From a virus, in IMG/VR virus record IMGVR_UViG_3300045988_160394, positions 64,001 to 128,000 of that record: 64,000 nt of DNA. The stretch is one strand, 5' to 3'. Positions 2,045 through 61,000 of this stretch are shown here, one piece after another (position 1 is the stretch's first letter; each line of letters opens with the position of its first letter). The position numbers and the translations under genes are program-made. The notes below the pieces were generated by a model. That model was not told the DNA's origin, did no database searches, and saw only the letters and a list, made by a program, of their open reading frames with translations.

Positions 2045-2073
2045 TTTACAAACATAAATAAATTTGATATATT
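2045..2073 (+). promoter_or_regulatory. sigma70-like promoter upstream of the tRNA array
   Basis: TTTACA (2045-2050), a 17-nt spacer, then TATATT (2068-2073), about 55 nt upstream of the first tRNA. AT-rich DNA yields many chance matches. Confidence 0.4.
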
Positions 2074-2128: not shown

Positions 2129-2247
2129 GCGGGTTTCACGTAGTTTGGTTAGCGTTCTGGTCTTCAAAACCAGTGACAGGCACCATGTTCGACATGCTTT
2201 AATGTTTTGGTTATAAGTCTGCGGGGGTTCGAATCCCTCAACCCGTG
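2129..2247 (+). tRNA. suppressor-type tRNA, anticodon UCA (reads UGA), Trp-like, with a ~49-nt insertion between the anticodon and T arms
   Basis: Acceptor GCGGGTT/AACCCGT. D arm ACGT..GCGT with a GG loop. Anticodon arm CTGGT-CTTCAAA-ACCAG, giving anticodon TCA. T arm GGGGG-TTCGAAT-CCCTC. Discriminator G. No encoded CCA. The anticodon arm closely resembles bacterial tRNA-Trp, CCGGU-CUCCAAA-ACCGG. Confidence 0.75.
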
Positions 2248-2317
2248 GTCTCTCATTTAGTAAGCCTCCACGTTGGCGAGAGACGGAAACAAAATTACTA
2301 TTTTGGCTAATTACTAA
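2248..2317 (+). ncRNA. HDV-like (theta-type) self-cleaving ribozyme, copy A, abutting the tRNA(UCA) 3' end
   Basis: Nested double pseudoknot readable by eye.
- P1: GTCTCTC (2248-54) / GAGAGAC (2278-84).
- P2: TTAGTAA (2257-63) / TTACTAA (2311-17).
- P3: GCC/GGC with L3 TCCACGTT.
- P1.1: GG (2285-86) pairs with CC in L3.
- P4: AAAAT-TACT-ATTTT.
- J4/2: GGCTAA with candidate catalytic C 2307.
The core AGCCTCC..TGGCG......GGAAACA parallels the HDV genomic ribozyme, AGCCUCCUCGCUGGCGCCGGCUGGGCAACA. Confidence 0.8.
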
Positions 2318-2339
2318 GAAATCTTTATGGAGGGTTTAT

Positions 2340-2966: not shown

Positions 2967-3014
2967 TAATAAAGACTTTTTCATACATACATTTCTCATA
3001 ATTGAGTAATATAG

Positions 3015-3040
3015 GTCACAAGTTGAAATATATTTGTGAC
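3015..3040 (+). other. 7-bp hairpin 4 nt upstream of the ribozyme B cleavage site
   Basis: GTCACAA-12 nt-TTGTGAC, followed by TAGC and then ribozyme position G1 (3045). It would form the 3' end of the endonuclease mRNA after cleavage. Confidence 0.5.
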
Positions 3041-3044
3041 TAGC

Positions 3045-3122
3045 GTCTTTCAACTAACAAGCCTCCTCGTGGCGAAAGATGGAAACAGATAGAAGTAAAA
3101 TAATTATCTGGCTAATTGTTAG
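3045..3122 (+). ncRNA. HDV-like (theta-type) self-cleaving ribozyme, copy B
   Basis: - P1: GTCTTTC (3045-51) / GAAAGAT (3074-80), with a G1-U wobble as in HDV.
- P2: CTAACAA (3054-60) / TTGTTAG (3116-22).
- P3: GCC/GGC with L3 TCCTCGT.
- P1.1: GG (3081-82).
- P4: GATA..TATC.
- J4/2: TGGCTAA (C 3112).
The stems differ from copy A only by compensatory changes. Confidence 0.8.
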
Positions 3123-3129
3123 AAAATAT

Positions 3130-3204
3130 TGCGGTATAGCCAAGTGGAAAGGCAGCTGACTTTGACTCAGCTATGCGTAGGTTCAATTCCTACTACCGCT
3201 GCCA
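3130..3204 (+). tRNA. tRNA-Gln (UUG)
   Basis: Cloverleaf with anticodon arm GCTGA-CTTTGAC-TCAGC and T arm GTAGG-TTCAATT-CCTAC. U1/U72, G73, encoded CCA. Confidence 0.8.
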
Positions 3205-3208
3205 ATAA

Positions 3209-3285
3209 TGTGGTGTAGCTCAATCGGTTAGAGCATACGTCTGATAAGCGTAAGGTTACAAGTTCAATTCTTGTCACCACAACCA
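3209..3285 (+). tRNA. tRNA-Ile (GAU)
   Basis: Acceptor TGTGGTG/CACCACA. Anticodon arm TACGT-CTGATAA-GCGTA. T arm ACAAG-TTCAATT-CTTGT. Encoded CCA. Confidence 0.8.
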
Positions 3286-3341
3286 CAACTAGATTAAAAT
3301 ATTCTAGTAAAAATATATGGTGTATATATTTGCGATGTAAA

Positions 3342-3434
3342 TAAGATAAAGCTCAGCCAGGTTAGAGCACATGGGTTATTATGAGGCATTGTAATAATAC
3401 TTTGGAGTCGTGGGTTCAAATCCCACTATCTTAT
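3342..3434 (+). tRNA. tRNA-like gene with an aberrant, elongated anticodon region (pseudo- or non-canonical tRNA)
   Basis: The acceptor TAAGATA/TATCTTA, D arm GCTC-AGCCAGGTTA-GAGC and T arm GTGGG-TTCAAAT-CCCAC are good. There are 41 nt between the D and T arms instead of about 23. That region folds as CATGG..CTTTG plus a TTATTA/TAATAA helix with an 8-10 nt loop containing CAT. Confidence 0.4.
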
Positions 3435-3443
3435 TTATATTAA

Positions 3444-3520
3444 TGCGGTATAGCTTAGTTGGTAAAAGCCCTCGATTCATAACCGAGAGATCACAAGTTC
3501 GAATCTTGTTACCGCAACCA
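3444..3520 (+). tRNA. tRNA with CAU anticodon (elongator Met, or Ile2 if lysidine-modified)
   Basis: Acceptor TGCGGTA/TACCGCA. Anticodon loop TTCATAA. T arm ACAAG-TTCGAAT-CTTGT. Encoded CCA. No initiator features. Confidence 0.8.
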
Positions 3521-3663
3521 TTATATTAAAGGTTGATTCTCCAGCCTGGAGGTGAGAAGTTGATAAAACACTCACTAAACGCCATAAAAGGTAATCACGA
3601 ATGTGAGCGTGTGATTAACTATTTTATATAGTAGAAGAGTCCCTTATCTTCCTCTATTGTTAT

Positions 3664-3738
3664 GGGAATATAGTACAAAGGTTAGTACAATCGGCTGTTA
3701 ACCGATAGATCCTGGTTCGATTCCATGTATTCCCGCCA
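3664..3738 (+). tRNA. tRNA-Asn (GUU)
   Basis: Acceptor GGGAATA/TATTCCC. Anticodon arm ATCGG-CTGTTAA-CCGAT. T loop TTCGATT. Encoded CCA. Confidence 0.8.
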
Positions 3739-3840
3739 TTTACTTACTCTCACATATATCATAAATATATAATTAAATTTTTATTCAACAAAAAGTGTGC
3801 ACTTTATTTAACACAATGACATACTTAAACCCCTGTAATG

Positions 3841-3867
3841 AGAAGTCTCGAAAGAGGCTTCTTTTTA
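3841..3867 (+). terminator. rho-independent terminator closing the tRNA array
   Basis: AGAAGTCTC-GAAA-GAGGCTTCT followed by TTTTT. Confidence 0.7.
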
Positions 3868-5395: not shown

Positions 5396-6172
5396 ATGGA
5401 TAGTGGAAAAATGTTTTTATGCTATGTACCTAAAAAGCATATTACAGATGCTTTAATAGATCAGGTAGACTGATTAATTGAAAACGAATATAGCAATTAT
5501 AATGATTGCGTTATTATAGATAATATAAGTAAGGGATATAGAATATATCCTAATGATTTAAAAGCTATGATGTCTAGATGTAGTTATAGTGAATTATTAG
5601 ATAATATATATGATAATATAAATAAAAATAAAACATCAATTATTTTAAATGATTTTGATATAGATATAGATGATTTAAAAGATGTTTATTCAGAAATTAT
5701 AAAAGAAAAGAATATAACCATTATTATTTTTAATAGCATTAGAACTGATAATGAAGATAAACTTATGATTAAAATTAAAAAAGATTTAAAAGAATTAAAA
5801 GAAGATAAGTGATCTGAATTAAAATCAGAAATCCTTGAACATATTGATGAATATATGGATAGATTTGATTCAAATAATGAAATTTTTGATCCAGAAGAGG
5901 ATAGTGACGATGAAGGGTTACAAGAATTATTAGATTTAATTAGCAAAGAATTATCAGAAGAATGTGAAGAAGATGAAGAATCTTATAATAGATTTGCTTT
6001 AAAAAGTATTAAAGAAAGTTATACTTATCAAAAGAAACAGGATGTATTATCAGTTTCTTTAACTACTGGTAACGACTTAATATTATCTGATGGAGAAGAA
6101 CAAATATTAATAAAAAATAATATGATTAATCATTTGTTAGAAACAATAGAACATATTAGAGGGAAAAAATAA
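5396..6172 (+). CDS. hypothetical acidic protein (two in-frame TGA codons)
   Basis: ATG 5396 with an AAAGGTGAG RBS. One frame joins an unlisted 5' part to ORFs 5567..5812 and 5855..6172 through TGA 5471-73 and TGA 5810-12. TAA stop. Confidence 0.6.
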
Positions 6173-6196
6173 AGTTCAAGGGGAGAATGCAAAAAT

Positions 6197-6877
6197 ATGA
6201 TTAAAGAAGAATATGGTTATTATGAAGATTTAAAAGAATACAGTAATGAGGCAATAGTAAAAAGAATACAGGAAACAGATGATCCTAGACTATGAGATGA
6301 ATTAGATAAAAGAACTAAAAGAGTATTTAGCTCAGTAATGAGAGATGAAGTTCATCCTTATTATAAAGAAAATATGAGAGATGATATCTTAAGCGTATTA
6401 AGAATAGGGTGAGTAAAAGCTGTTAAGACATATGATGAGTCAAAAGCTACAGCTGAATTTGTTCCTTATTGTAGTTTTATTATGTGACAAAATTATAGAA
6501 TGTTTGCTAGAAGAATTACTAAAGAAAAAGTAGGTAATTCAGTTAGAGACGAACCATTATCATGTGTATCAGCAGATGGTTATTCAGATAATGAAAAGAT
6601 GTCACAAGGTTGTATAGACATAATCATGAAACATGATTGTGAAGAATATAAAGCTATAGAATCAAAAGACTTTGTTAATAGCTTATTAGAAAAACTTAAA
6701 GAACATGATGAAGTTCAATATTTGATTATTAAGAAACATTGTATTGAAGGAATAACTCAAAAAGAGTTAGGACAAACATTACAAATGTCGCAATCATATA
6801 TATCAAGAAATATAAAAAAGGGAATGGCATTCTTAAAACAAGAGTTAATACTTGAAGGACAGAAATTAAAGATGTAA
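6197..6877 (+). CDS. sigma-70 family RNA polymerase sigma factor (three in-frame TGA codons)
   Basis: ATG 6197 with an AGGGGAGA RBS. TGAs lie at 6293, 6410 and 6485. Read-through gives a region-2-like segment, LRIGWVKAVKTYDESKATAEFVPYCSFIMWQNYRMFARR. A region-4 HTH, GITQKELGQTLQMSQSYISRNIKKG, follows. Confidence 0.75.
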
Positions 6878-13804: not shown

Positions 13805-13816
13805 GAGGTAATTGAT

Positions 13817-14050
13817 ATGGCAGAAAGAATTATACAAAAAGAATTAGCAGAAGCTATGGCTCCAAGATATAAATCTTATGGTTTATATGTTGTTAAAGAT
13901 AGAGCTTTACCTAGCTTATATTCTGGTTGTAAACCCGTTCTTCAAAGATCATTGTACTCAATGTTTGAAATGGGATTAAAAAGTACAGCTAAGATAAAAA
14001 AATCTGCTAGAGTTGTTGGAGATGTAATAGGTAAATATCATCCACACGGT
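13817..14050 (+). CDS. gyrA: type IIA topoisomerase subunit A, exon 1
   Basis: Ends ...VIGKYHPHG, then runs into intron sequence. The canonical motif continues as HPHGD at 15311. Confidence 0.85.
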
Positions 14051-15310
14051 TGTTGAAAAATAGTATATATTTTGCAATAATTTATTTTTCATTCATATAG
14101 TAAATATATAAACAGAATTTATTATAAGAATGGAGAAATAATTTTATGAAAAAAACAGAATTTAATGAAACACAAATAAAAGATATAGTTGAAAGATATA
14201 AAAATGGAGAAGCTATTATGAACATTAGAAAAGATTATAATGTTAGTCATAGTACTATTAATAGAGTATTAAAAGAAAATAACGTTGCAATTAGAGGTAA
14301 TAGGAAACATTTTTATAACGAAGATATTTTAAAAAAAATAAATACAGCTGAAAAAGCTTATTGAATAGGATTTATTACAGCAGATGGTTATATTAATGAA
14401 GATAGAAATTTTATGAGAATAAAGCTTCAAGAAAAAGATAAAGATCATTTATATAAATTTATGAAATTTATCGGAGGAGATGAAGGTATGATAAAATATG
14501 AATTTCATAATATAACTGGTAATAAACAATGATATATAGAAGTTAGTGGTAAGACTTTTATTAAGTCGTTAGTAGAATTAGGAATAAGACAGAAAAAAAG
14601 TTCTAATGAGCAATGGTGTAATAAGATTCCAGAAAAATATATAAAAGATTATATAAGAGGAATAATAGATGGAGATGGGCATATATCTTTGGAAAATAAA
14701 AGATTTGACATATGTAATTCAGAATCGTTATTAATACAATTGCAAAATTTCCTAATAAAAGAATATAATACTTCAAAAACAAAAATATATGATCATTGTA
14801 ATACAAAAAGATTGTTTGTAACAGTTAATGCTACAGATATATTGTTTGATTTATATTATAAAAAGTGTGTATCATTAGATAGAAAATATAAAACTGTTAA
14901 AATATTAAAGCAATTAATAGAACTATAATTGCCGTGTATAAATAGGGTAAAATCGGTTCCGACAGCTTAAACAAAAAGATGGATGGTTTAAGTATGGTGG
15001 TATATAAAGAAGAGAGGCTTAATTGCTAATACCGAGGTAAAGATAAGTTTAAAACCTTATGCTCACCGTAACGCATAGACATTGAAACTTTATTAAATTA
15101 AAGAATATAATATGTCCAAGAGTGCCCTACACAGAATTGAAAAATATTCTCCTAGGTCAAGTAATAGCTTGATGTGAAAATGTATGCTAGGCTGGACTAG
15201 AATTAACTAGTCGATGAGGTTAGTTATTAACCAAATGAGTGAAAACTCCAGAGTCAGGTGTAGGAATAGACCTACTATTAATAGATAAAAAGCCCTGAGA
15301 TAATAACATT
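14051..15310 (+). mobile_element. group I intron interrupting gyrA between HPHG and D
   Basis: Exon homology resumes exactly at 15311. The 5' exon ends in T and the intron ends in G. A GC-enriched, helix-rich block (14929-15310) lies downstream of the embedded endonuclease ORF. Confidence 0.75.
14146..14928 (+). CDS. intron-encoded LAGLIDADG homing endonuclease with an N-terminal HTH (two in-frame TGA codons)
   Basis: TGA 14362-64 and TGA 14530-32 join ORFs 14146..14364 and 14689..14928 in one frame. Two LAGLIDADG motifs appear: (W)IGFITADGYI and IRGIIDGDGHI. Confidence 0.8.
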
Positions 15311-19773: not shown

Positions 19774-20931
19774 TTTGCGTTAGCTGGATAATTAGTGATA
19801 TCTCATATAATAAGATATGAGGTGATAAAATTGAGATATAAATGGACTCAAAAAAAAGTAGATTTATTAAAAAAATATTATGAAGAAGGTTTAAGTAATA
19901 AAGAAATAGCTAATAAAATGGGTACTACTGTTCATAGTGTTTCTGGGAAAGCTAAAGAACTTAAATTGAGAAAAAATTTATCAAAAGTATATAATTTATT
20001 AACTGATAAAGAAAAAGAATATATAAAAGCCAATAGTTTAAAAAAATCTATCACTCAGATAGCAAAAGATCTGAATAGAGATAAAGAAACAATAAATAAG
20101 TATATTAAACAAAATAATTTAGTTACAAAATTTAATTTATTTGATCATTTAATGACTAATGAGGAATTTGTTAAAGATTTTAAAAATCCTTCATTATCAC
20201 ATGCTTTTTTAGGTAGAAAATATAATGTTACTGATTGAGTTATAAGAAAATGAAGGTTAGCAAACATAGGTAATTACAAACAAATGACAGATACTTATTT
20301 ATGTAAGTCAACTTCTGAATTAGAGGTTGAAAAAATATTAGAAGAATTAGATTTGGCTTATATTTATGAAAAGAAAATTCTTGATTGAAAAGTAGATTAT
20401 TACTTAGGCTTTAAAACTATAATAGAAGTTCAAGGTGATTACTGGCATAATCTTGATAAGGTAAAAGAAAAAGATAAACGTAAATTTAAAGAACTTCGAG
20501 ATAATGGATTTACTATTATAGAAATATGAGAAAGTGAATTATCAAATATAGATTTAATAAAAACTAAGATATTATCCAATTTTAGGGTCTCCCTTAAGGA
20601 GTAATTCTTAAGTAAAAAACTTGGTGAACTGTTTGCTTAACAGGTGTGCAATTAACGTTAAAGTAGCTATAGTAAATGATAGTTAATAATTGTGCTAACA
20701 GGGAACATTGCTAACGGCAATCCTGTGCCAAGACTTATTATCATGATAAGTAAGGTCAAGAGACTATCGAAAACAAATAATAAATATAACTCCTATAAGG
20801 AGAATAAGGTATTGTAGGATACACGAAGTGAGTAGAGTACGGTAGAGATAAGCACTACTGGAAGTGCCAAGTCCCTTATTAGTATTAAGGGTAAAGATAT
20901 AGTCCGACATCATAAAATAATTGTGATGTTG
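19774..20931 (+). mobile_element. group I intron interrupting the recA-like gene
   Basis: Exon 2 resumes at 20932, giving GD|PLVLAGGRAIRYSS. The 5' exon ends in T and the intron ends in G. AAGATATAGTCCGAC (20894-20908) matches the J8/7-P7 consensus of group I introns (Tetrahymena AAGATATAGTCGGAC). Confidence 0.8.
19831..20604 (+). CDS. intron-encoded homing endonuclease, N-terminal HTH plus C-terminal Vsr-like PD-(D/E)XK domain (four in-frame TGA codons)
   Basis: TGAs at 20236, 20251, 20386 and 20527. Read-through gives ...VDYYLGFKTIIEVQGDYWHNLDK...LRDNGFTIIEIWESEL, which resembles Vsr FVHGCFWH...VWECEL. The start is ambiguous (TTG 19831 after GAGGTGA, or GTG 19795). TAA stop at 20602-04. 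Confidence 0.65.
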
Positions 20932-21582: not shown

Positions 21583-22233
21583 ATGAGTTGTGAATTTGGG
21601 TATACAGATTGTAAAAATGAAGGAAAAAGATGTGATTTGTGTTTTGATGCATCAAATTATGTCCCTGCTAAACCTAAAACTCAAGGACTAAGAAAGAGAA
21701 ATACAGAAAAAGCAACTGGTAGAATGGGAGAATATTTCGAAAGAAATAATAATAAGGCTGTTAAAAATAATATTCAATCAGTTGTAACTAGTATGACACC
21801 TAACTCAGGAGCGGGTAAGGTTAAAGGTGATCAACAGATCACTGGTATGATTAGGATAATGGAAGAATTAAAGACTCAAGATCCTCACCGTGCAAGAGGT
21901 CATAATCAATTTACTATTCAACGTAAATGGTTAGATAAATTAGATAGAGAAGCTCCTGTTGAAAATATGGAATTCTGGTATCTAAAGTTTGCTTTTTGTG
22001 ATACAGATAGTAATCATTATATAGTCTTTGACGCAGATCAAATGAGAGATATGGTTGCTACTTTAATACACGACAGAAAGAAAGTAAATGATGCTGATGC
22101 TAAAGTAAAAGTAGCAGATACTAGAAGAGTATTAGCAGAAGCAGAATCAACAAAACTATTTGCAGAAGTTGAATACTTAAAAGCTATTTTAAACAAAGAA
22201 GGAATTGAGTACGATGATTATTCAGGACACTAA
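21583..22233 (+). CDS. putative PD-(D/E)XK nuclease / Holliday-junction-resolvase-like protein
   Basis: The pattern GEYFE...TPNSGAGKVKGD...IMEELK resembles the Hjc-type E..SG..D..ExK arrangement. The gene sits between two RecA-like genes. Confidence 0.35.
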   Translation: MSCEFGYTDCKNEGKRCDLCFDASNYVPAKPKTQGLRKRNTEKATGRMGEYFERNNNKAVKNNIQSVVTSMTPNSGAGKVKGDQQITGMIRIMEELKTQDPHRARGHNQFTIQRKWLDKLDREAPVENMEFWYLKFAFCDTDSNHYIVFDADQMRDMVATLIHDRKKVNDADAKVKVADTRRVLAEAESTKLFAEVEYLKAILNKEGIEYDDYSGH

Positions 22234-22933
22234 TTTACAAGAAAAAATATCTAAATCTATTTTAAAATATGAAGAGGTTTTTGGAGGCAAATATAAGATG
22301 GAACAAAAATATTTGTTGACTGGGAATAGCGTTTTAAATGAAATGCTACATGGTGGTTATAAAAAAGGTACTAGCACTGAAATAAGTGGTATGAGTGATA
22401 CAGGTAAAACTTTTTTAGCTATTAAAGCTATATTAGAAGCTCAAAAAGAAAATAAGATGACTATTTATATAGATACTACTTTAAAATTAACAAATGATGT
22501 TCTAACTGATAATAATATAGATCCAGATGGTGTAATTATTATTAGATCAAATAAAGCTGATAGTTTAGGACCTACACTTAAATCTATAATTGAACCTTAT
22601 TCTGATGAAATAGGCTTAATAATTATAGATGATTTAGCAGGCTTAACAACTTCTTATGAACAAGAATCTTCTATTAAAAAGAATACTGATATTCATAGAA
22701 GCAAAGTTGTAAAATCTTTATTGATGAGAATAAGCAATCTTATTAGAAATACTGAAATAACTTGTTTAGTAATTAATCAAGAAAGAAGCAATTTTGATAA
22801 CGAAGATATAGAAGTAGTATCTTCTTTTGAAAAATGAATTCAAATGTGTTGTGACACTAGAATCAAGCTTGTTATTGATGAAGATGGAGATGCTTGTGTA
22901 GATGTTAAATTTAAAGAAAAGAGGTTAAAGTAA
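22214..22933 (+). CDS. RecA-superfamily ATPase paralogue (RadB/Sak4-like; one in-frame TGA)
   Basis: Walker A SGMSDTGKT. Walker B LIIIDDLAGL. TGA 22835-37 extends ORF 22205..22837 to TAA 22931-33 (...SSFEKWIQMCCDTRIKL...). Confidence 0.6.
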
Positions 22934-25092: not shown

Positions 25093-27285
25093 ATGAGAAC
25101 AATGTTATTATTTAGAGGAGCCCCAGGTTGTGGGAAATCTACTCTTATTAAAGAATTAGGAATAGAACCTTATACATTATCAGCTGATGATATAAGATTA
25201 TTATTACAATCACCTCAGCTTAATGTAGATGGAACTTATTCTATTTCACAAGATAGCGAAAGTAAGACTTGGGAAATATTATTCGAAGCATTAGAAAATA
25301 GAATGTCTAGAGGAGAGTTTGTTGCTATAGATGCTACTAACTCAAAAACATCTGATATGACAAGATATAGAGATTTAGCAGATCAATATAGATATAGAAT
25401 TTATATAAAAGATTTAACAGATCTTCCTATAGAAGAATGTAAAAGAAGAAATGCTAATAGATTACCTGAATATAAAAGAGTACCAGAAGAAGTTATTGAT
25501 AATCAATATGCTAGATTCGCTACTCAAGGTATTCCAGGAAGAATTAAAAAGCTAGTAACAGATGATATTATAAAAGAAATGTCATTTGATATTATAGATT
25601 TCTCAGATTATGAAGCAGTACATGTTATAGGTGATATTCATGGATGTTATTCTGCATTAAAACAACTTATGGATGAAATATGGAATGAAAATCATTTATA
25701 CATTTTTACTGGAGACTATCTAGATAGAGGTATAGAAAATGCAGAAACTTTAAATTTTATATTTGATTTATCTGAAAATAAGAATACAATATTCTTAGAG
25801 GGTAATCATGAATTAGGTTTAAGAAACTGGGCAAATGATTTACCTGTTAAATCTAGAGAATTTAATAAAAGAACATTACCTCAAATAGATGGTAGGGTTA
25901 GTAAAAAGAAAGCTAGAATGTTCTGTAGGAATTTAAGACAATTTGCTTACTTTAAATATGGAGAAAATGTTATATTGTGTACTCATGGAGGTGTTCCTTT
26001 AGTTCCAGATAAATTATTATTTTTTCCAACTAGAAACTTTATAAATGGTATAGGAACATATCAAGAAGCTTTAGATGTAGATATGGCTTTTGAAACAAAT
26101 ATGCCAGAAAACTATATTCAAATTCATGGACATAGAAATATGGATGATATCCCTATAAATTCTACAGGAACATGGAGAAGTTTTAACTTAGAAGGTCAAG
26201 TAGAATTAGGTGGAGAATTAAGAGCCGTGTCTTTCTTTAAAGAAAATAAAATAAAAACTCATGAAATAAAAAATGATGTTTTTAGAACATATGAAGCAGA
26301 TATTCCTGATAGAGTATATAAAGAAATGACAGATGAAATGATGTTTGACATTATGGATTCTAATGAAATGGTTACTAGAAAAACATTTAAGAATGGTATG
26401 TGTAGTTTTAACTTTAAACAAACTGTATTCCAAGGAAGATTATGGGATACAGCAACTGTTAAAGCAAGAGGACTATTTTTTGACGTTGAATCAAAGAAGA
26501 TAGTATTAAGAAGTTATGATAAATTCTTTAACATTGGGGAGAGAACAAATACAAAGATCCACAACTTAAGAAATAATTTAACCTTCCCAGTTAAAGAATT
26601 TTTAAAATATAATGGCTATTTAGGGTTAGTAGGACTTCATAATGATGAATTTGTATTCGCTTCTAAATCTTCTATTAAGAATGAACATTCTAAATGGTTA
26701 GAAGATATATTTATGTTAAGAACTACTGAAGAACAAAGAAAAGCTATAAAAGAATTTATAAAAGCTACAAATACAACATTTGTATTTGAAGTGATAGACC
26801 CAGAAAATGATCCGCACATTATAAAATATAAAGAAAAAGATATAATATTATTAGATATTGTATTAAATAAACCTATATTTGAAAAAGTTCCTTATGAATC
26901 AGCTATTATGCTTGCTAAAAAGTTTGGACTTAAATATAAAGAATTAGTTAATGAATTTGACAACTGCTTAGATTTTTATACTAATTATTTAGAAACTTTA
27001 AAACCAGATTATCTTTACAATAATAAAGAAATAGAAGGTTTTGTAATAGAAGATAGTGAAGGCTTTATGACTAAGTCAAAGCTAACTTTCTATAAACAAT
27101 GGAAAATGTTAAGGGATTTAGCTCATAGATATCTTAAATATGAGCATATTAAATCAACATCTGCTTTAACTACTCCAGAAATGAATTATTTCTATGGATG
27201 GTTAAAGGATCAACCAAAAGAAGAAGTAAAAGGCAAAGATATCATATCACTTAGAGATATGTTTTATAAAAATTTTAAAAAATAA
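25093..27285 (+). CDS. pnkp: trifunctional RNA repair enzyme: polynucleotide kinase, metallophosphatase, RNA ligase (bacterial Pnkp architecture)
   Basis: N-terminal P-loop GAPGCGKST. Central calcineurin-type motifs GDIHGC, GDYLDRG, GNHE. C-terminal nucleotidyltransferase domain with a KYNGY (KxxG-type) motif. Confidence 0.75.
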   Translation: MRTMLLFRGAPGCGKSTLIKELGIEPYTLSADDIRLLLQSPQLNVDGTYSISQDSESKTWEILFEALENRMSRGEFVAIDATNSKTSDMTRYRDLADQYRYRIYIKDLTDLPIEECKRRNANRLPEYKRVPEEVIDNQYARFATQGIPGRIKKLVTDDIIKEMSFDIIDFSDYEAVHVIGDIHGCYSALKQLMDEIWNENHLYIFTGDYLDRGIENAETLNFIFDLSENKNTIFLEGNHELGLRNWANDLPVKSREFNKRTLPQIDGRVSKKKARMFCRNLRQFAYFKYGENVILCTHGGVPLVPDKLLFFPTRNFINGIGTYQEALDVDMAFETNMPENYIQIHGHRNMDDIPINSTGTWRSFNLEGQVELGGELRAVSFFKENKIKTHEIKNDVFRTYEADIPDRVYKEMTDEMMFDIMDSNEMVTRKTFKNGMCSFNFKQTVFQGRLWDTATVKARGLFFDVESKKIVLRSYDKFFNIGERTNTKIHNLRNNLTFPVKEFLKYNGYLGLVGLHNDEFVFASKSSIKNEHSKWLEDIFMLRTTEEQRKAIKEFIKATNTTFVFEVIDPENDPHIIKYKEKDIILLDIVLNKPIFEKVPYESAIMLAKKFGLKYKELVNEFDNCLDFYTNYLETLKPDYLYNNKEIEGFVIEDSEGFMTKSKLTFYKQWKMLRDLAHRYLKYEHIKSTSALTTPEMNYFYGWLKDQPKEEVKGKDIISLRDMFYKNFKK

Positions 27286-37715: not shown

Positions 37716-39382
37716 TGATAGAAGTAAAAGATTATGGACATTATTATAATGTATCATTCAATGGAGATAAGGATAATTATCATAAATTTTTTAACTTTAT
37801 GGTATCTAAAGATGATATTGTAAAATTAAAAAAGAAAACTGGATGAAAGATGCCTAAATGTTATTTACCTGAATTAGAAGAAACATTTAATAATGTTGTT
37901 GAATTAATAGCTAATCCTTGGGATTATATAGGGGAAGGTTTAAAACTTTCTCCATATTGTTATCAAAAAGAAACAATTAAATTTGGAGTAGATAATAAAA
38001 AAGGTCTATTAATTTTGCCTTGTGGTTCTGGTAAAACACCTATTCTTGTAGGTATATATCATGAACTTAGAAAGAATAATTTAACTACTAAACCAGGAGC
38101 AATTATTGTTAAAGCATCTTTAAAGTATCAATGAGTGAAAGAAGTAGAAAAATTTTCAGATTATATAGCAAAAGCCATAGAAACTCCTTCTAAAGTTAAA
38201 AAGAAATTTGATGAGCAATTTGAAAACGCTGATTTATTTATATTAAATTATGAAACATTAAAGAATAAACAAGTAGCTGCTAAGTTAAGAGAGAAGAATG
38301 TAGAAGTAATGCTATTAGACGAAATACATTACATAAACAATCATACCTCTGCTAGAAGTAAAGCTGCTTATGAATTTAATGATTTGAAGTATTTAATAGG
38401 GGCTACTGCTACGCCAATTACTAATAACCCAGAAAATTTATTTGGAATATTTAATCTTATAGAAAAAGATCTATTCCAGTCCCACAGTAAATTTGCTAGG
38501 TCATATATAAAATATGCTGGTTATGGAAGAGTAGCTGGTTGCAAAAATGAAGATCATTTAAAGAAGAAGATAGCTCCATATATATTTATTAAAAGCGAAG
38601 CAGATGTTGCTGATCAATTGCCATCTCTTGTTGTTAATCAAAAATATTGTTATATTACTAGTCCTATTATGCAAGAAACTAATGCTAAATTGTTTGAGGA
38701 ATTAGATGTAGTCAATAATCAAATTAAACAATTAGAGAAAAGATATCCTAATCCAAAAGATTTAGAATCTAATGAAGAGTTTTTAACAGCTAAAGGTAAG
38801 GTAATGGCATATCAAACTTTTCTACAAGAATTAGTAGACGATCCTAGATTATTAAATGAATCAGAAAGTAATTTAGCTAAACAATATCATTGTCAAGAAG
38901 AATCTCCTAAGTTAAAAATGCTATTTGAACTAGTAGAAGAAATAACTGAAGCTGGTAGTAAAGTATGCATATTTACTAAGTATGTTCGTATGCAAAACAT
39001 ATTACAAAGGGAATTGGAAAGATATTTCGATTTTAAATGTGTTATAATTAATGGCAGTATGACTCCAGAAGAAAGATACGAAGCTGCTTATACTAAATTT
39101 GGAGACAATGATGATTATAAAGTATTGATAGGTACTGATGCTATGGCAGAAGGAATATCTTTATCTAAGTGTAATTATCTTATAGAATATGATTTAGCAG
39201 ATTCATATGCCATTCAGACACAAAGACATGGTAGAATAAAAAGAGCTAATTCAGTTCATAAAACTGGATACGTATATCAATTGATATGCGTAGATAGTTG
39301 GGATGAAGTACAGCAAAAGATAATAGCTAAAAAAGAGAATTATGATAATAATTTAATACAGAATATAGGAGAGTGAAAATAA
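37715..39382 (+). CDS. SNF2-family helicase (three in-frame TGA codons)
   Basis: ATG 37715 (TAATG overlap). TGAs at 37847, 38132 and 39374 join an unlisted 5' part to ORFs 37850..38134 and 38135..39376. PCGSGKT. ASLKYQ[W]VKEVEKF matches the SNF2 QW..E motif. LLDEIHYI. Motif VI QRHGRIKR. True stop TAA 39380-82. Confidence 0.8.
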
Positions 39383-58092: not shown

Positions 58093-61000
58093 ATGCCACC
58101 TATTAATAAGATACCATTTAAAGTGAAATTAATGTCAGAATCATTAGCTGGCAAAAGTTATGATAAATCTAATATATCAAAACAATTTATTGTAATACAC
58201 AATATGGTTGGAACATCTGAAAGTTCCCTAAAATATTGGAATAGTGGCTCAGGTGGTCAATACACTTCTGCACATTATTGTGTAGATGATAAAGAAATTT
58301 GGCAAACTTTAAAAGATCAATGAGCAGGTCGACATTGTGGGAAACCTAGTCCTTGGGCAACTTTAAAGGGATGTAATAATAATACCTCTATTGGTATAGA
58401 AATAGCAGATATGCTTTGTAACCAAAAACAAGCTGTAGATAATGCTATTGATGTCGCTAGACATTTAGCAAAAGTTCATGGGATTCCATATGAAAATATT
58501 GTTAGACATAAGGATGTGTCTAATACTGATTGCCCAAAATGGATAGAAAGTCATAATTTATGGGATTATTTTAAAAAAGAAGTAGAAAGAAGAGATCAAG
58601 AAAACGTAGAATTGTGTTATGATCCTTCTACCGCAATATCTGGAGATGTTACACCAGGAGACAACGGTACTGCGTCACCAGAGACAGGTGGAAGTCAAAC
58701 TCTTCCTAACTTTGATAATAGGGAAGATTGAACAAATCTAAAAGAAATAAAAGGTGTTGTATTAGTTTGCATGCCTCCTCAACATTTTACTACTTTAAAA
58801 GATAAAGATGAAAAATGGGCAAAAGAAAAGTATGCTAAGGAGTTCCATTTTCTATATGATACTGAATGGAAAGAAGGTAAAGAAAAAACCTTAATAGCTA
58901 GATCATTGTTAGATAATGATAGGCACACTTATATAGAAAGAGCTTTATATAATAATAAAGCAGAAAAATCAGTATTAAGTGTAGGTATGTTTTTACCTCC
59001 TATGTTAGATGATTATCCAGCCTATGAAAAAAAATTAATAGATAATTTAGGCAAAGTAATTTATGAGAATAAATTAAACACTAAAGATCTATGGAGAGAA
59101 TTTGATTTCAATAGGACACCATCACCATTTATGTATCTTGATAGAGAACAATGGAAAAAGTTTTTAAGAGAGATAGATAAGCAAGTTAAATGGAGATATG
59201 AGAAATTTGGAGAACCTCTTCAACCAGAGAAAGATCCAACTCAAGATAATACTGATTATTCAAATATAAAAGAGAATATAGGTAAAGAAACAGTTACTTC
59301 AAGATATTGCTTATTAAGAGCAAATCCTAGCATGACTAGCCCAATAATACTGGCTTTAGAAAAGGATGTGCCTTTAACAATTACAGATGCAGATACTAGA
59401 GGCTATTATAAAGTTAAATTAGCAACAAATCAAAAAGAAGGTTGGTTAGTCGCTAAGAGCGTTAAAATAGAAAAAGAAGAAGAAAAAGCTACTTTAAAAC
59501 CATTAGTATTAGCTGCTGTTAAAGAAAAAGATATTCCTCAGCCAGAGATAACTCCAACTATGACTCATGACCAATATTTAAAATGGAAAGAACTAACCGA
59601 TCCTAAATTAATAGATGAATTTGTTGGAGAGTGTGAACCTTACGATAAAGGACTAAAAGAAATCATAGATTCAGCTGTTAAAAATGATGATAGATTAACA
59701 TCTTTAACTAAGAATATGGAAACAGAGAATAACTCTACTATTAATTATTCAGTTACAGAAGCATCACCAGGAGATTCTGGTCATTGTGTTAAGCCTTCTG
59801 CTGAACTTAATGTATTAATAAAACCTAGAGAATCTATAAAAGTAGATCCTGTTTATCCTGATTTAATTGTTCCTCCAAATTACACTCCAACTGATTATAA
59901 TATAAGGTCTCAAAATTCTATTCCTATGGCTACATTAGAAGACGGATCTTTAATAAAAGACGCTAAAGATTTCGATAATGATCAATTAACGTTTGATTAT
60001 GAGCTATTAAATGATAAGAAAAAGATATCTAAAGGTAAACCTATTAACTATTTGGACCCTTATCCATATGATGATAAAATAATAGAACTAGAAAAACATC
60101 ATCCTAAAGTAAAGATAGATGAAATAGAAGCTAGACTATATGAAAGCAATCATCCAGGGGACCCTAGTTCACAACCAATGGCTAAAAATTTTGCATTGGT
60201 TTATGATGCTATGTTAAAACAATCTAGTAGTATAGAGAAAAGACTTGTGAAGATAGAAAATGTATTAGCTAATGTATTACGTAATCAAGGTAGAATTGGT
60301 TCAAGAATAAACGTAAATTGTGTTTATTATGGAGGTCAAGACTCCTTTGGAAAATATAAAACAATTAGATGTTTATGTGATGATAGAATACATGATGCAA
60401 GTTCTGTTACATTAGACCAATGTTTATCTTGTACTAGATACGAACCTATCTTAGGACAAGTATATGATATTCTAGATGATACAGGTATGAATGGAACTGT
60501 ATTCTTAGATAACATGCAAATGGGTTATATGAATTTAGATGATTTAAAAAATCTTAATAGAGTTGAAAAAAGATGTACTTCTAATGAATATGCAAATGTT
60601 AATAAAGAGATGGAAAAACCAGAATCTCAAATTAAGAGATGGGAAGAATCTGATAAGAAGATATATATAGAATCTCTTAAGAAAAAGATTACTGACGAAA
60701 AGGAATTAGATAAAAAGATAAAAGAGATAAAACAAGAAGATTATAGCTTCAAAATGAATTGGTATGAGCAAGATTTAGATGTTCAAGAACCAGATGTAAA
60801 ACCTTATCCATTAGAGGGAATTAAAGCTAGGTATAAAAAAATAAATCTAAGTAATCCAGGAGAAGAATCAGATAACTATCTAGAAAAAGAATCTGTATTA
60901 GATGATTCTACAGATCAAGATACTATAAAAGATATGACTGATTTAGAGAAATTAAATAATGGAGAATGGGTTGATACTAGAGAGGAAGCTGATACTACTG

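What the first reader, a model, noticed from the sequence alone, without database searches (positions are those of the whole stretch)
2129..2247. Phage-encoded tRNA with anticodon UCA and tRNA-Trp identity marks, carrying a ~49-nt insertion
The first gene of the tRNA array has a clean acceptor, D arm, anticodon arm and T arm. The anticodon loop is CTTCAAA, so the anticodon is UCA and reads UGA. The anticodon arm CTGGT/ACCAG and the G73 discriminator mirror bacterial tRNA-Trp (CCGGU-CUCCAAA-ACCGG, G73). This fits TGA being decoded as Trp.

The unusual feature is the 49 nt between the anticodon stem and the T stem (2175-2223). A class I tRNA-Trp has about 5 nt there. I could not find a convincing extra-arm helix by eye.

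The window also encodes peptidoglycan hydrolases, so the host has a cell wall and is not a code-4 mollicute. That argues the recoding is a phage-driven function supplied by this tRNA.
Basis: partly seen in the sequence, partly recalled or inferred. Interest (0 to 1): 0.75.

Follow-up and report, generated by a model that had tools for sequence, protein, structure and literature searches.

The report
Phage UGA-reading tRNA with giant arm
A roughly 263-kb gut phage carries a tryptophan-type transfer RNA that reads the stop codon UGA and has a conserved, folded 49-base extra arm about ten times the usual size, which hides it from a standard tRNA finder.

Summary
Window 2129-2247 (+) is a tRNA gene: Rfam tRNA model 47.9 bits against a cut-off of 29. 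Its anticodon is UCA, its discriminator is G73, and exactly 49 nt (2174-2222) lie between the anticodon stem and the T stem. ARAGORN in default mode misses it.

The interpretation largely holds. None of 63 genes ends in TGA, and 16 in-frame TGA codons sit in 7 genes. They are conserved in related phages with protein conservation on both sides. One is TGG in a relative, and two align with Trp in solved homologues.

It is a three-helix arm, 49 nt long in every lineage found. Eight of its 14 base pairs show compensatory changes, and RNAalifold recovers it on a model-fitted alignment.

Directly 3' of G73 lies an HDV-like "theta" ribozyme, a described phage device for tRNA 3' ends, which is dispensable in relatives.

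Best reading: an opal-suppressor tRNA-Trp that keeps a giant variable arm in the mature molecule. The arm's role is unknown, and excision is not excluded. The recoding and the ribozyme are known kinds. A variable arm of this size on a Trp-type tRNA appears undescribed.

The parts
2045..2073 (+). Sigma-70-type promoter-like site, TTTACA-17-TATATT with TG before the -10 hexamer, 56 nt upstream of the tRNA. Probable start of the tRNA-array transcript.
   Evidence: 10 of 12 consensus positions. This is a consensus match only. The sequence is conserved in L131.
2129..2247 (+). tRNA(UCA), 119 nt, with a 7/5 acceptor/T configuration and G73. Predicted opal-suppressor tRNA-Trp.
   Evidence: Rfam tRNA 47.9 bits. 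Conserved in L031, L032, L041, L038, L039, L040, L127, L128, L129, L134 and L135. The cloverleaf is 97% paired, with 18 pairs showing compensatory change.
2164..2166 (+). Anticodon TCA, which reads UGA, within the loop CTTCAAA (2162-2168).
   Evidence: Sequence and the Rfam alignment. GTCTTCAAAAC is invariant in all seven variants.
2174..2222 (+). 49-nt variable arm.
- Linker: UGA.
- Helix 1: 2177-2181 with 2217-2221.
- 3' bulge: UAUAA, 2212-2216.
- Helix 2: 2182-2185 with 2208-2211.
- Internal loop: 2186-2190 opposite 2207.
- Helix 3: 2191-2195 with 2202-2206.
- Apical loop: GCUUUA, 2196-2201.
- C2222 acts as nucleotide 48.
   Evidence: The length is exactly 49 nt in all lineages. Eight of 14 pairs show changes on both sides, and all four pairs of helix 2 covary. 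RNAalifold recovers 13 of the 14 pairs. The apical CAUGCWUUWAUG is invariant.
2248..2317 (+). HDV-like (theta-type) self-cleaving ribozyme rz1. The predicted cleavage site is between 2247 and 2248, exactly 3' of G73.
   Evidence: RF02682 at 31.4 bits, below the gathering score of 44. P1, P3, P1.1, P4 and the J4/2 GGCUAA with its catalytic C are readable. P1 and the P2 pseudoknot covary between copies. The context matches Kienbeck et al., PMC10879173.
2340..2966 (+). GIY-YIG homing-endonuclease gene inside the tRNA transcription unit. It is present or absent among near-identical phages.
   Evidence: phrog_314 and phrog_7168 homing endonuclease. PF01541 in L030 and L041. Absent in L031, L032, L038 and L131.
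3045..3123 (+). Second HDV-like ribozyme, rz2, 6 nt upstream of tRNA-Gln. In L039 and L040 a copy of this type follows the tRNA(UCA) directly, after one C.
   Evidence: RF02682 at 36 bits, below the gathering score. Alignments.
3130..3738 (+). Rest of the tRNA array: Gln(UUG) 3130-3204, Ile(GAU) 3209-3285, a degenerate tRNA-like at about 3340-3435, Met(CAU) 3444-3520 and Asn(GUU) 3664-3738.
3840..3863 (+). Intrinsic-terminator-like hairpin followed by a T run. Probable end of the array transcript.
   Evidence: consensus match only.
5396..6172 (+). Gene of unknown function whose only two Trp codons are TGA (5471, 5810). A client of the suppressor.
   Evidence: Both TGAs are conserved in L036-L041 with protein conservation on both sides. 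TGA 5810 is conserved in all lineages.
6194..6877 (+). Sigma-factor-like gene (a Sigma70_r4 match just below Pfam's cut-off) whose only three Trp codons are TGA (6293, 6410, 6485). A client of the suppressor.
   Evidence: Codon 34 is TGA here and TGG in L128/L129. Codon 73 is TGA in every lineage.
14146..14928 (+). LAGLIDADG homing-endonuclease gene with 2 in-frame TGA codons (14362, 14530), interrupting the topoisomerase A-subunit gene.
   Evidence: The subunit gene is intact in L036.
19795..20604 (+). I-Bth0305I-like homing-endonuclease gene with 4 in-frame TGA codons, interrupting recA.
   Evidence: In the PDB 3r3p alignment a TGA position falls on Trp. RecA N- and C-terminal parts flank it.
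22205..22933 (+). RecA/KaiC-like ATPase gene with one in-frame TGA (22835).
37850..39382 (+). SNF2-family helicase gene with in-frame TGA codons at 38132 and 39374.
   Evidence: TGA 38132 aligns with the Trp of 'SVLKNWEEE' in PDB 1z63..
58093..62247 (+). Large protein with amidase, SH3 and NlpC/P60 cell-wall hydrolase domains, carrying 2 in-frame TGA codons (58321, 58729).
25093..27285 (+). Polynucleotide kinase / phosphoesterase / RNA ligase fusion. Possible accessory that heals the 2',3'-cyclic phosphate left by the ribozyme. This role is inferred.
   Evidence: phrog_8238 at E = 2e-213, plus kinase, phosphoesterase and ligase PHROGs. 37-45% identical to homologues in SPbeta-like Bacillus phages and in Staphylococcus phage Twort and related phages.

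Best explanation
Window 2129-2247 encodes a functional opal-suppressor tRNA derived from tRNA-Trp.

1. It is transcribed early, from a host-type promoter, as the first gene of a tRNA operon (inferred).
2. Its 5' end is made by RNase P (inferred).
3. In this genome its 3' end is cut exactly after G73 by the adjoining HDV-like ribozyme. The site is shown by sequence. Cleavage itself is inferred.
4. The 2',3'-cyclic phosphate left behind must then be removed and CCA added. Both steps are inferred. The phage kinase-phosphoesterase-ligase fusion is a candidate healing enzyme.
5. The tRNA is charged with tryptophan, by host TrpRS or by a phage TrpRS encoded outside the window (inferred). It reads UGA as Trp.
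6. This allows translation of a minority of phage genes that carry in-frame TGA. These include a sigma-like factor that uses TGA for all of its Trp codons, several homing endonucleases, an SNF2 helicase and a cell-wall hydrolase. All phage genes in the window terminate with TAA or TAG.

The 49 nt between the anticodon and T arms is a three-helix, fixed-length variable arm. It emerges where class II tRNA arms do. I judge it most likely to be kept in the mature tRNA, at about 60%.

Its invariant apical hairpin and fixed length suggest that it is a recognition handle for a protein. Candidates are a synthetase, a sequestering or regulatory factor, or a protective factor. Its bulged base may also keep SerRS off. 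That role is conjecture.
For: tRNA identity
- Rfam 47.9 bits.
- The cloverleaf and arm are conserved in seven distinct variants from at least three lineages. 97% of cells are paired, 18 pairs show compensatory change, and 0 of 500 shuffles reach the observed values. Sliding the partners drops pairing to 36-46%. RNAalifold gives the same fold.

The arm
- It is 49 nt in every lineage.
- In helix 2 all four pairs covary; one takes C-G, G-C and U-A. In helix 3 two pairs covary, and in helix 1 two pairs covary.
- The flanking intergenic DNA and the ribozyme diverge while the arm stays almost invariant.
- My reading of the alignment is that the last arm nucleotide covaries with nucleotide 15: G15-C48 against A15-U48.

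Trp origin
- G73 and U72 are present, with A1-U72 in L038-L040.
- Model R1 places the tRNA-Trp(CCA) of L132 first (50.1 bits) and that of L123-L126 third (48 bits) among other tRNAs; a tRNA-Ser(UGA) in L133 scores between them at 49.6 bits.
- The 3' acceptor strand of L128/L134 equals that of the L132 tRNA-Trp.

UGA is sense and most likely Trp
- Of 63 genes, 49 end in TAA, 14 in TAG and none in TGA. There are 16 in-frame TGA codons in 7 genes.
- The TGA codons are conserved, with protein conservation on both sides.
- Sigma-like codon 34 is TGA here and TGG in L128/L129. Codon 98 is TGA here and TAT, TTT or CAA elsewhere.
- TGA aligns with Trp in 1z63 and in 3r3p.
- In cell-free tests, 13 of 13 phage tRNA(UCA) inserted Trp (PMC12636597).

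Ribozyme: and the published theta-ribozyme context (PMC10879173).

Long arms are tolerated in translation: engineered aptamer hairpins in variable arms leave tRNAs active, and a bulge in the arm blocks SerRS (PMC7590224).
Against: - No RNA data exist, so the mature length is unknown. Retention of the arm is inferred only from its class II-like placement, its fixed length and the R15-Y48 covariation. A structured intervening sequence could show the same features.
- On a single sequence the arm folds no better than shuffled sequence.
- In L128 three arm pairs are broken.
- Covariation rests on only three independent lineages, and alignment A5 was fitted to the model.
[quoted passage not shown] The latter is established knowledge of class Ic synthetases and was not tested here. 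A 49-nt arm might therefore hinder charging by host TrpRS.
- No TrpRS, RF1 or CCA-adding enzyme was seen in the 64 kb examined.
- Both ribozyme copies score below Rfam's gathering threshold.
- The L123-L126 clade keeps conserved TGA codons, yet no tRNA(UCA) was found in the stretch fetched.
Confidence: 0.6

Rival explanations
1. The 49 nt is an intervening sequence. The precursor is cut within the arm, by host RNase III or by an unidentified phage nuclease, at the bulge and loop that flank helix 2. The halves are then rejoined by the phage kinase-phosphoesterase-RNA ligase. The product is a tRNA with a short or class II-sized variable region. This would be protein-catalysed tRNA splicing in a bacterial system.
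For: - The phage encodes a three-domain heal-and-seal enzyme at 25093-27285.
- RNA ligase genes are enriched in theta-ribozyme phages (PMC10879173).
- The arm has a bulge on the 3' strand and a loop on the 5' strand, separated by a helix of 3-5 bp. This is the topology of a relaxed bulge-helix-bulge motif.
- Other tRNA genes in these arrays also carry odd insertions.
Against: - Length is fixed at exactly 49 nt and the apical hairpin is invariant, whereas introns usually vary in length.
- The bulges are 4-5 nt and 5-7 nt, and the central helix is 3, 4 or 5 bp in different lineages, so the strict 3-4-3 motif is not met.
- No splicing-endonuclease homologue was seen among the window proteins scanned.
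- Cutting at the bulges would still leave an arm of about 23 nt.
- Kinase-ligase fusions of this type occur in many phages where tRNA repair explains them.
Confidence: 0.17
2. It is a selenocysteine or serine-accepting tRNA. The long arm and G73 recruit SerRS, so UGA is read as Ser, or as Sec after conversion.
For: - The anticodon is UCA, the discriminator is G73 and the variable arm is long. These are the SerRS identity marks (PMC7609411).
- The same anticodon arm occurs in tRNA-Sec genes and in long-armed tRNA(UCA) genes on viral contigs.
Against: - The acceptor/T domain is 7/5, not 8/5.
- The D arm is normal, with a 4-bp stem and G18 and G19, not the 6-bp stem and 4-nt loop of tRNA-Sec.
- TGA positions correspond to TGG, Trp or aromatic residues in relatives and homologues, not to Ser, Cys or Sec.
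- The arm is bulged a few pairs from its base, a feature shown to block SerRS in engineered tRNAs (PMC7590224).
- The best-matching other tRNAs include tRNA-Trp genes in first and third place.
Confidence: 0.04
3. The host itself uses code 4 (TGA = Trp). The phage tRNA merely supplements a host tRNA, so no code switch takes place.
For: The genome has very low GC (28%), no gene ends in TGA, and TGA is sense.
Against: - TGA supplies only 16 of 161 Trp codons and is absent from 56 of 63 genes. In AT-rich code-4 bacteria TGA is the dominant Trp codon (established knowledge).
- The phage encodes amidase and NlpC/P60 wall hydrolases and an anaerobic ribonucleotide reductase. Its proteins resemble those of Bacillota phages.
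- The pattern of a few recoded genes, including homing endonucleases, is the one described for phages of standard-code hosts (10.1101/2021.08.26.457843).
Confidence: 0.08
4. It is a tRNA-like RNA with a non-translational role, such as a decoy, a primer or a processing signal, or it is a decaying pseudogene. UGA would then be decoded by something else.
For: - ARAGORN rejects it.
- Degenerate tRNA-like sequences do occur in the same arrays, for example at 3340-3435.
- The L123-L126 clade has conserved TGA codons without this tRNA in the fetched stretch.
Against: - All four canonical arms are intact, covarying and under strong purifying selection in every lineage. The anticodon loop is invariant.
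- It is the only tRNA in the window able to read UGA, and it co-occurs with TGA-containing genes.
- A CCA end is encoded in L031, L128, L134 and L135.
Confidence: 0.05

Closest known systems
Phage-encoded opal-suppressor tRNA-Trp(UCA) of TGA-recoded gut phages (Borges et al., bioRxiv 10.1101/2021.08.26.457843; Seki et al., PMC12636597)
   Same: - Anticodon UCA with G73.
- A phage, probably of a standard-code Bacillota host, that never uses TGA as a stop.
- TGA concentrated in a subset of genes, including homing endonucleases and a wall hydrolase.
- Trp as the inferred meaning of TGA.
   Different: - Those tRNAs were found with standard detectors, and no long variable arm is mentioned in the texts searched.
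- This one carries a 49-nt structured arm and escapes ARAGORN.
- Recoded genes here include early or middle functions (a sigma-like factor, a helicase), not mainly lysis and structural genes.
Theta ribozymes: minimal HDV-like ribozymes abutting phage tRNA 3' ends (Kienbeck et al. 2024, PMC10879173)
   Same: - A nested double-pseudoknot HDV-like fold.
- The cleavage site lies at the tRNA 3' end, within +/-1 nt.
- The tRNA lacks an encoded CCA.
- A suppressor tRNA as partner, and an RNA ligase gene in the genome.
   Different: - Bacillota-type jumbo phage, whereas about 90% of the published hosts are Bacteroidota.
- Two copies occur in one operon, one of them ahead of a GIY-YIG gene.
- The ribozyme is dispensable: sister genomes have the same tRNA with an encoded CCA and no ribozyme.
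- The sequences were not found in the held supplementary files.
Class II tRNAs (Ser, Leu, bacterial Tyr) and tRNA-Sec
   Same: A helical arm emerges after two or three unpaired nucleotides following the anticodon stem and ends one nucleotide before the T stem. That last nucleotide appears to act as nucleotide 48.
   Different: - Their variable regions are much shorter: at least 10 nt (PMC7609411), and in my recollection no more than the low twenties.
- They form a single hairpin. Here the region is 49 nt, with three helices, a bulge and an internal loop.
- The body and the inferred amino acid are Trp (class I), and the acceptor/T configuration is 7/5 rather than that of tRNA-Sec.
Engineered aptamer-tagged tRNAs (Mukai 2020, PMC7590224)
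   Same: A protein-binding hairpin is mounted on the tip of a long variable arm of a suppressor tRNA. A bulge in the arm prevents SerRS charging, and the tRNA stays active in translation.
   Different: Those tRNAs are synthetic and built on a 9/3 allo-tRNA chassis. Here the arm is natural, on a 7/5 Trp-type body, and no binding partner is known.
Archaeal non-canonical tRNA introns (bulge-helix-bulge)
   Same: An insertion outside the anticodon loop, with bulges on opposite strands flanking a short helix.
   Different: - A bacterial virus, with no splicing endonuclease seen.
- Bulge sizes and central-helix length vary between lineages and do not fit the 3-4-3 rule.
- Length and apical sequence are conserved.

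Membership tests
tRNA (Rfam RF00005) | Covariance-model score above the curated threshold over the full model | tested here: met
   47.9 bits against 29, model positions 1-71. Relatives score 41-50 bits.
tRNA (Rfam RF00005) | Cloverleaf with a 7-bp acceptor stem, 5-bp T stem, 5-bp anticodon stem and 7-nt loop, plus G18, G19 and a T-loop, kept by compensatory change | tested here: met
   All four canonical helices are 97-100% paired, with 10 pairs showing changes on both sides. The RNAalifold consensus is the same.
Bacterial tRNA-Trp / opal-suppressor tRNA-Trp(UCA) | Discriminator G73 with U72 (A1-U72 in typical bacterial tRNA-Trp) | tested here: met
   G73 and U72 are invariant. Position 1 is A in L038-L040 and G (G.U) in the window, L127, L128 and L134.
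Bacterial tRNA-Trp / opal-suppressor tRNA-Trp(UCA) | Anticodon NCA reading UGG or UGA, with U31-A39 closing the stem | tested here: met
   The sequence U-CUUCAAA-A is invariant.
Bacterial tRNA-Trp / opal-suppressor tRNA-Trp(UCA) | Class I variable loop of 4-5 nt | tested here: not met
   The variable region is 49 nt in every variant.
Bacterial tRNA-Trp / opal-suppressor tRNA-Trp(UCA) | UGA is translated as tryptophan | tested here: met
   The evidence is indirect. A TGA/TGG alternation occurs at one codon between relatives. TGA aligns with Trp in 1z63 and 3r3p. No gene ends in TGA. No proteomic data are available.
Bacterial tRNA-Trp / opal-suppressor tRNA-Trp(UCA) | Aminoacylation by TrpRS | not testable with these tools
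   This needs an in vitro charging assay or acid-gel Northern blots.
tRNA-Sec | 13-bp acceptor/T domain (8/5 in bacteria), 6-bp D stem with a 4-nt loop | tested here: not met
   The configuration is 7/5, with a 4-bp D stem and a D loop of 7-10 nt containing GG.
tRNA-Sec | UGA sites correspond to Cys or Sec positions in selenoprotein families | tested here: not met
   The sites lie in a helicase, a sigma-like factor, homing endonucleases and a hydrolase. They align with Trp, aromatic or other residues.
allo-tRNA (Mukai et al., PMC5389517) | 8/4 or 9/3 acceptor/T configuration with a long variable arm | tested here: not met
   The configuration is 7/5.
HDV-like / theta ribozyme | P1, P1.1, P2, P3 and P4 nested double pseudoknot with a catalytic C in J4/2 | tested here: met
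   All elements can be read in both copies. P1 position 5 (C-G against U-A) and the 7-bp P2 covary among copies. GGCUAA is invariant.
HDV-like / theta ribozyme | Score above the Rfam gathering threshold for a curated HDV-like family | tested here: not met
   RF02682 scores 31.4 and 36.0 bits against a threshold of 44. The E-values are 0.0019 and 0.00017 in a 2-kb search.
HDV-like / theta ribozyme | Cleavage site within +/-1 nt of a tRNA 3' end | tested here: met
   G1 of rz1 is 2248 and the tRNA discriminator is 2247. In L039 and L040 one C lies between them.
HDV-like / theta ribozyme | Self-cleavage | not testable with these tools
   This needs in vitro transcription and a cleavage assay.
Group I tRNA intron | Intron of at least about 140 nt in the anticodon loop with a P1-P9 core | tested here: not met
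   The insert is 49 nt, lies in the variable region, and has no Rfam intron match at E <= 10.
Archaeal-type bulge-helix-bulge intron | Two 3-nt bulges on opposite strands separated by exactly 4 bp, with a splicing endonuclease present | tested here: not met
   The bulges are 4-5 nt and 5-7 nt (with 0-2 nt opposite). The central helix is 4, 3 or 5 bp in the three lineages. No such nuclease appeared among the proteins scanned.

The most novel reading that the evidence does not exclude
The giant variable arm is a natural aptamer handle on a suppressor tRNA. A phage or host protein binds the invariant apical hairpin, held at a fixed distance from the tRNA body. Binding either sequesters the tRNA or recruits it to a dedicated TrpRS. 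This would set the time at which UGA changes from stop to Trp, and with it the translation of the TGA-only sigma-like factor and the downstream programme. It would be the natural counterpart of engineered aptamer-tagged tRNAs, and a concrete trigger for the phage code switch.
Probability: 0.2. Interest if true: 0.85.

Novelty: new variant of a known kind. Interest (0 to 1): 0.62.

Why it matters
Many stop-codon-recoded phages have no detectable suppressor tRNA. Borges et al. proposed that non-canonical tRNA structures hide them from standard detectors. This locus is a concrete case: a covariation-supported opal suppressor that ARAGORN misses because of a 49-nt arm. Searching with models that allow such arms could close part of that gap.

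A Trp-type tRNA that tolerates a three-helix arm of fixed length extends what translation systems appear to accept in nature. Tolerance depends on the arm being retained. The arm also points to an unknown partner that reads it, which could explain how the timing of the code switch is controlled.

For genetic-code engineering, a natural UGA-reading tRNA with a large built-in handle is a candidate orthogonal or regulatable chassis.

The neighbouring region is also informative. Among near-identical genomes it varies in ribozyme copy number (0, 1 or 2), in the presence of the homing-endonuclease gene, and in whether CCA is encoded. This is a natural experiment on how theta ribozymes substitute for protein-based 3' processing.

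Tried and rejected
- ARAGORN with introns allowed and lowered thresholds. It returns a tRNA-Leu(CAA) with a 39-nt anticodon-loop intron. I rejected this because its anticodon stem is mostly G.U and it ignores the perfect CUGGU/ACCAG stem that covaries in relatives.
- Folding the insert alone. It folds no better than shuffles, so a single sequence is uninformative.
- The annotated phage collection searched with the DNA. No match. With the ligase protein the best hit is only 45% identical, so there is no annotated close relative.
- IMG/VR scans. I searched for the anticodon arm, for UCA loops followed 40-70 nt later by a T loop, and for two arm-specific patterns. These found tRNA-Sec genes, some phage tRNA(UCA) genes with 20-29-nt arms, and chance matches. 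None had this arm.
- GTDB genomes: only two chance matches.
- JGI metagenomes: one near-identical copy.
- A protein-based IMG/VR scan with the AAA ATPase: nothing.
- A search for other copies of the apical hairpin motif in the window: none beyond chance.
- The amidase alignment. The TGA position falls on a variable column, so it says nothing about the amino acid.
- The supplementary tables of the theta-ribozyme paper. The sequences were not found in the text held.
- A pseudo-anticodon idea, that CCA is displayed in the arm for TrpRS. I rejected it because the CCA of helix 2 is not conserved in L128 or L134.
- My first idea that rz1 and the GIY-YIG gene form one mobile cassette. I weakened it because L032 and L038 have rz1 without the gene.
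Full report
**The object**

Rfam's tRNA model matches window 2129-2247 (+) end to end at 47.9 bits, against a gathering score of 29 (E = 3.8e-7). The match has one long insertion between the anticodon and T arms. Read from the sequence:
- The acceptor stem is GCGGGUU/AACCCGU, with G1.U72.
- The D arm contains G18 and G19.
- The anticodon stem is CUGGU/ACCAG around the loop CUUCAAA, with anticodon UCA at 2164-2166.
- The T arm is GGGGG-UUCGAAU-CCCUC.
- The discriminator is G at 2247.

The variable region is 49 nt, 2174-2222. ARAGORN's default run finds the four downstream tRNAs (Gln, Ile, Met, Asn) but not this one. In relaxed intron mode it produces an implausible tRNA-Leu(CAA).

**Where it comes from**

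The window is 28% GC with all genes on one strand. An exact-protein look-up places it on a 263,172-bp contig from ENA sample ERZ1756024. The relatives come from other ENA and Logan assemblies, one of them labelled a gut metagenome.

The window holds replication and nucleotide-metabolism genes. These include topoisomerase II subunits, Pol III alpha, primase, UvrD-type and SNF2-type helicases, RecA, anaerobic ribonucleotide reductase with its activase, thymidine kinase and dUTPase. It also holds a kinase-phosphoesterase-RNA ligase fusion.

No annotated phage is close. The best protein identity is 45%, to SPbeta-like Bacillus phages. IMG/VR yielded one distant relative of the phage group (L132), and no copy of this tRNA was found there, including in the fetched part of L132.

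**UGA is sense, and most likely Trp**

Under a model of 63 genes, 49 end in TAA, 14 in TAG and none in TGA. Sixteen in-frame TGA codons lie in seven genes, against 145 TGG codons. Joining reading frames across TGA restores recognisable proteins:
- an SNF2 helicase,
- a RecA/KaiC-like ATPase,
- a sigma-like factor,
- LAGLIDADG and I-Bth0305I-like homing endonucleases,
- a protein with amidase and NlpC/P60 domains.

The TGA codons at 5471, 5810, 6293, 6410 and 6485 are TGA in all the closer relatives that cover them. Amino-acid conservation continues on both sides.

Three further lines bear on the meaning of TGA. First, codon 34 of the sigma-like gene is TGA in the window lineage and TGG in L128/L129. 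Codon 98 is TGA here and TAT, TTT or CAA elsewhere. Second, TGA 38132 aligns with the Trp of 'SVLKNWEEE' in the Sulfolobus SNF2 structure 1z63. Third, one TGA of the recA-inserted endonuclease aligns with the Trp of 'EGWNVAFYLG' in 3r3p. A TGA in the amidase falls on a variable column and is uninformative.

Two genes, 5396-6172 and the sigma-like 6194-6877, use TGA for every Trp codon.

A code-4 host is unlikely. TGA is the minority Trp codon in a very AT-rich genome and is absent from 56 genes. The pattern matches what Borges et al. describe for TGA-recoded phages of standard-code hosts, including enrichment in intron-type endonucleases. In Seki et al., 13 of 13 phage tRNA(UCA) tested inserted Trp.

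**Trp ancestry of the tRNA**

G73 and U72 are invariant. Position 1 is A in L038-L040 (A1-U72, the usual bacterial tRNA-Trp pair) and G elsewhere.

A covariance model built from the family (R1) was run over the held loci. After the seven true members, the tRNA-Trp(CCA) of L132 ranks first at 50.1 bits and that of L123-L126 third at 48 bits. A tRNA-Ser(UGA) in L133 scores between them at 49.6 bits. The 3' acceptor strand of the L128/L134 type equals that of the L132 tRNA-Trp.

**The 49 nt is a folded arm**

Alone, the insert folds no better than shuffled sequence. Homologues settle the matter. The tRNA sits just downstream of a conserved gene of about 183 codons, sometimes after one further small ORF. 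Seven distinct variants were recovered:
- the window type, identical in L031, L032 and L041;
- L038 and L040;
- L039;
- L127;
- L128, identical to L129;
- L134;
- L135.

Between the window type and the L128 and L134 types the tRNA body differs at many positions. The neighbouring protein is only 48-55% identical. Yet the variable region is exactly 49 nt in all of them, and the architecture is the same:
1. a short unpaired linker, usually beginning UG;
2. helix 1, of 3-5 bp;
3. a 4-5-nt bulge on the 3' strand;
4. helix 2, of 3-5 bp;
5. an asymmetric internal loop, with 5-7 nt on the 5' side and 0-2 nt on the 3' side;
6. helix 3, of 5 bp;
7. a six-base loop, GCWUUW;
8. one unpaired base before the T stem.

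On the model-guided alignment, 97% of cells are paired and 18 of 35 pairs show changes on both sides. None of 500 shuffles reaches the observed values. Sliding the partners by 1-3 columns drops pairing to 36-46%.

Within the arm, all four pairs of helix 2 covary. One column takes C-G, G-C and U-A. Two pairs covary in helix 3 and two in helix 1.

RNAalifold, given no structure, returns the cloverleaf plus the same three helices on that alignment, with a covariation term of -8.4 kcal/mol. The MAFFT alignment of five distinct sequences already gave the same direction.

My reading of the alignment adds one point. The last base of the region covaries with nucleotide 15 (G15-C48 against A15-U48). 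This is as expected if that base is nucleotide 48 of a canonical tRNA core.

Some caveats apply. Only three independent lineages exist, and the second alignment was fitted to the model. Three pairs at helix ends are broken in L128.

The apical CAUGCWUUWAUG is invariant and has no other copy in the window beyond chance.

**The 3' neighbour**

Starting at 2248, the base after G73, is an HDV-like ribozyme: RF02682 at 31.4 bits, below the gathering score of 44. A second copy lies at 3045-3123 (36 bits), 6 nt before tRNA-Gln.

P1, P3, P1.1, P4 and the GGCUAA junction with its catalytic C can all be read. P1 and the 7-bp P2 pseudoknot covary between copies: UUAGUAA/UUACUAA against CUAACAA/UUGUUAG. 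This is the arrangement published as theta ribozymes. Their cleavage sites abut phage tRNA 3' ends, a fifth of the partner tRNAs are suppressors, and RNA ligase and CCA-adding genes are enriched in such phages (PMC10879173).

HDV-type cleavage leaves a 2',3'-cyclic phosphate on the tRNA (established chemistry). The kinase-phosphoesterase-ligase at 25093-27285 is a plausible healing enzyme, but that is inference.

The ribozyme is not essential to this tRNA. L031 and L131 have the identical tRNA followed by an encoded CCA and no rz1. L128, L134 and L135 likewise have an encoded CCA and no ribozyme. L032 and L038 have rz1 without the GIY-YIG gene. L039 and L040 have G73-C followed by an rz2-type copy. 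L127 has rz1 and the gene but no rz2.

A consensus promoter at 2045-2073 and a terminator at 3840-3863 bracket the array.

**What the arm does**

This is not shown. I favour retention in the mature tRNA for four reasons:
- the arm emerges at the class II position;
- nucleotide 48 appears to behave canonically;
- the length is fixed to the nucleotide across lineages whose arm sequences differ at about half their positions;
- the tip is invariant.

That pattern suits a structural element read by a partner at a set distance. It suits a spacer destined for removal less well.

Engineered tRNAs with aptamer hairpins on the variable arm remain active, can be sequestered or recruited through the aptamer, and lose SerRS recognition when the arm is bulged (PMC7590224). 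Retention is therefore mechanically plausible, and the bulge near the base could protect against serylation despite G73.

The main rival is excision and re-ligation. The heal-and-seal enzyme, the bulge-helix-loop topology and the other odd tRNA genes in these arrays make it worth testing. However, the strict bulge-helix-bulge rule is not met and no endonuclease candidate was seen.

I reject tRNA-Sec or Ser identity on the 7/5 structure, the normal D arm and the Trp evidence. I reject a pseudogene or non-translational role on the selection pattern.

**Known and new**

Phage opal suppressors, TGA-to-Trp recoding and theta ribozymes are all described. Among the tRNA literature I could search and the pattern scans of IMG/VR, JGI metagenomes and GTDB genomes, I found no tRNA with a variable arm of this size. 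I found no Trp-type tRNA with any long arm.

Several phage tRNA(UCA) genes with 20-29-nt arms did turn up on viral contigs, so long-armed UCA tRNAs may be a wider theme. I file this as a new variant of a known kind.

Noticed in passing
window 2248-3129; L031 6558-6706; L032 3543-3833; L038 8519-8811; L039 8765-8850; L127 5054-5776: The stretch between tRNA(UCA) and tRNA-Gln is a mosaic among near-identical phages. It has 0, 1 or 2 HDV-like ribozyme copies, with or without a GIY-YIG homing-endonuclease gene, and the tRNA has an encoded CCA, a single C, or nothing after G73. In L032 and L038 a short hairpin replaces the endonuclease gene.
   Followed up: partly
window 3045-3123: A second HDV-like ribozyme lies 6 nt upstream of tRNA-Gln, and no tRNA abuts its cleavage site. 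It would cut the spacer or mRNA away from the downstream tRNAs and stay attached to the tRNA-Gln leader.
   Followed up: partly
window 3340-3435; L041 2340-2428: A tRNA-like sequence with an intact acceptor stem, D arm and T arm but an expanded, non-canonical anticodon region (Rfam 16 bits). Its counterpart in L041 is called an 89-nt tRNA-Thr(UGU) with a 6-bp G.U-rich anticodon stem and a long arm.
   Followed up: partly
L123 1492-1567 and 2297-2385; L132 5540-5625: Sister clades carry further odd tRNA-like genes with 13-18-nt 'anticodon loops'. The L123-L126 clade keeps conserved in-frame TGA codons, but only a canonical tRNA-Trp(CCA) was found in the stretch fetched.
   Followed up: no
window 3521-3663: A deletion scar. 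L032 and L041 carry tRNA-Ser(UGA), a drum RNA (RF02958) and tRNA-Ser(GCU) here. The window keeps only the last roughly 30 nt of tRNA-Ser(GCU).
   Followed up: partly
window 63183-63266: A skipping-rope RNA (RF02924, 57.6 bits, above the gathering score). Another copy lies next to the tRNA array of the distant relative L132 (5976-6078).
   Followed up: no
window 19129-21528: recA is split into an N-terminal part (19129-19791) and a C-terminal part (20923-21528). Between them sits an I-Bth0305I-like homing-endonuclease gene carrying four in-frame TGA codons. Whether it lies in a group I intron was not checked.
   Followed up: partly
window 13805-15360: The topoisomerase A-subunit gene is interrupted by a LAGLIDADG endonuclease gene (14146-14928, two TGA codons). 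The subunit gene is intact (825 codons) in L036.
   Followed up: partly
window 6194-6877 and 5396-6172: A sigma-factor-like gene and its upstream neighbour use TGA for all of their Trp codons (3 of 3 and 2 of 2). One TGA in each gene is conserved across every lineage. This suggests translation gated by the suppressor.
   Followed up: partly
window 25093-27285: A 730-residue polynucleotide kinase / metallophosphoesterase / RNA ligase fusion (phrog_8238). It is a tRNA-repair type of enzyme that could also heal ribozyme-cut tRNA ends.
   Followed up: partly
L133 4700-5200: In a distant relative, the 5' half of a tRNA gene (GGGGTTATAGCTCAGTTGGTAGAGCGGACGGATT...) is followed by an ORF with cysteine-pair and histidine motifs suggestive of an HNH endonuclease (not scanned against a family library). 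This may be an intron-interrupted tRNA.
   Followed up: no
L011, L013, L016, L022, L001 (IMG/VR contigs): Other viral contigs carry tRNA(UCA) genes with the same anticodon arm and variable arms of 20-29 nt, on bodies that do not look like tRNA-Sec. Long-armed UGA-reading tRNAs may be more widespread in phages.
   Followed up: no
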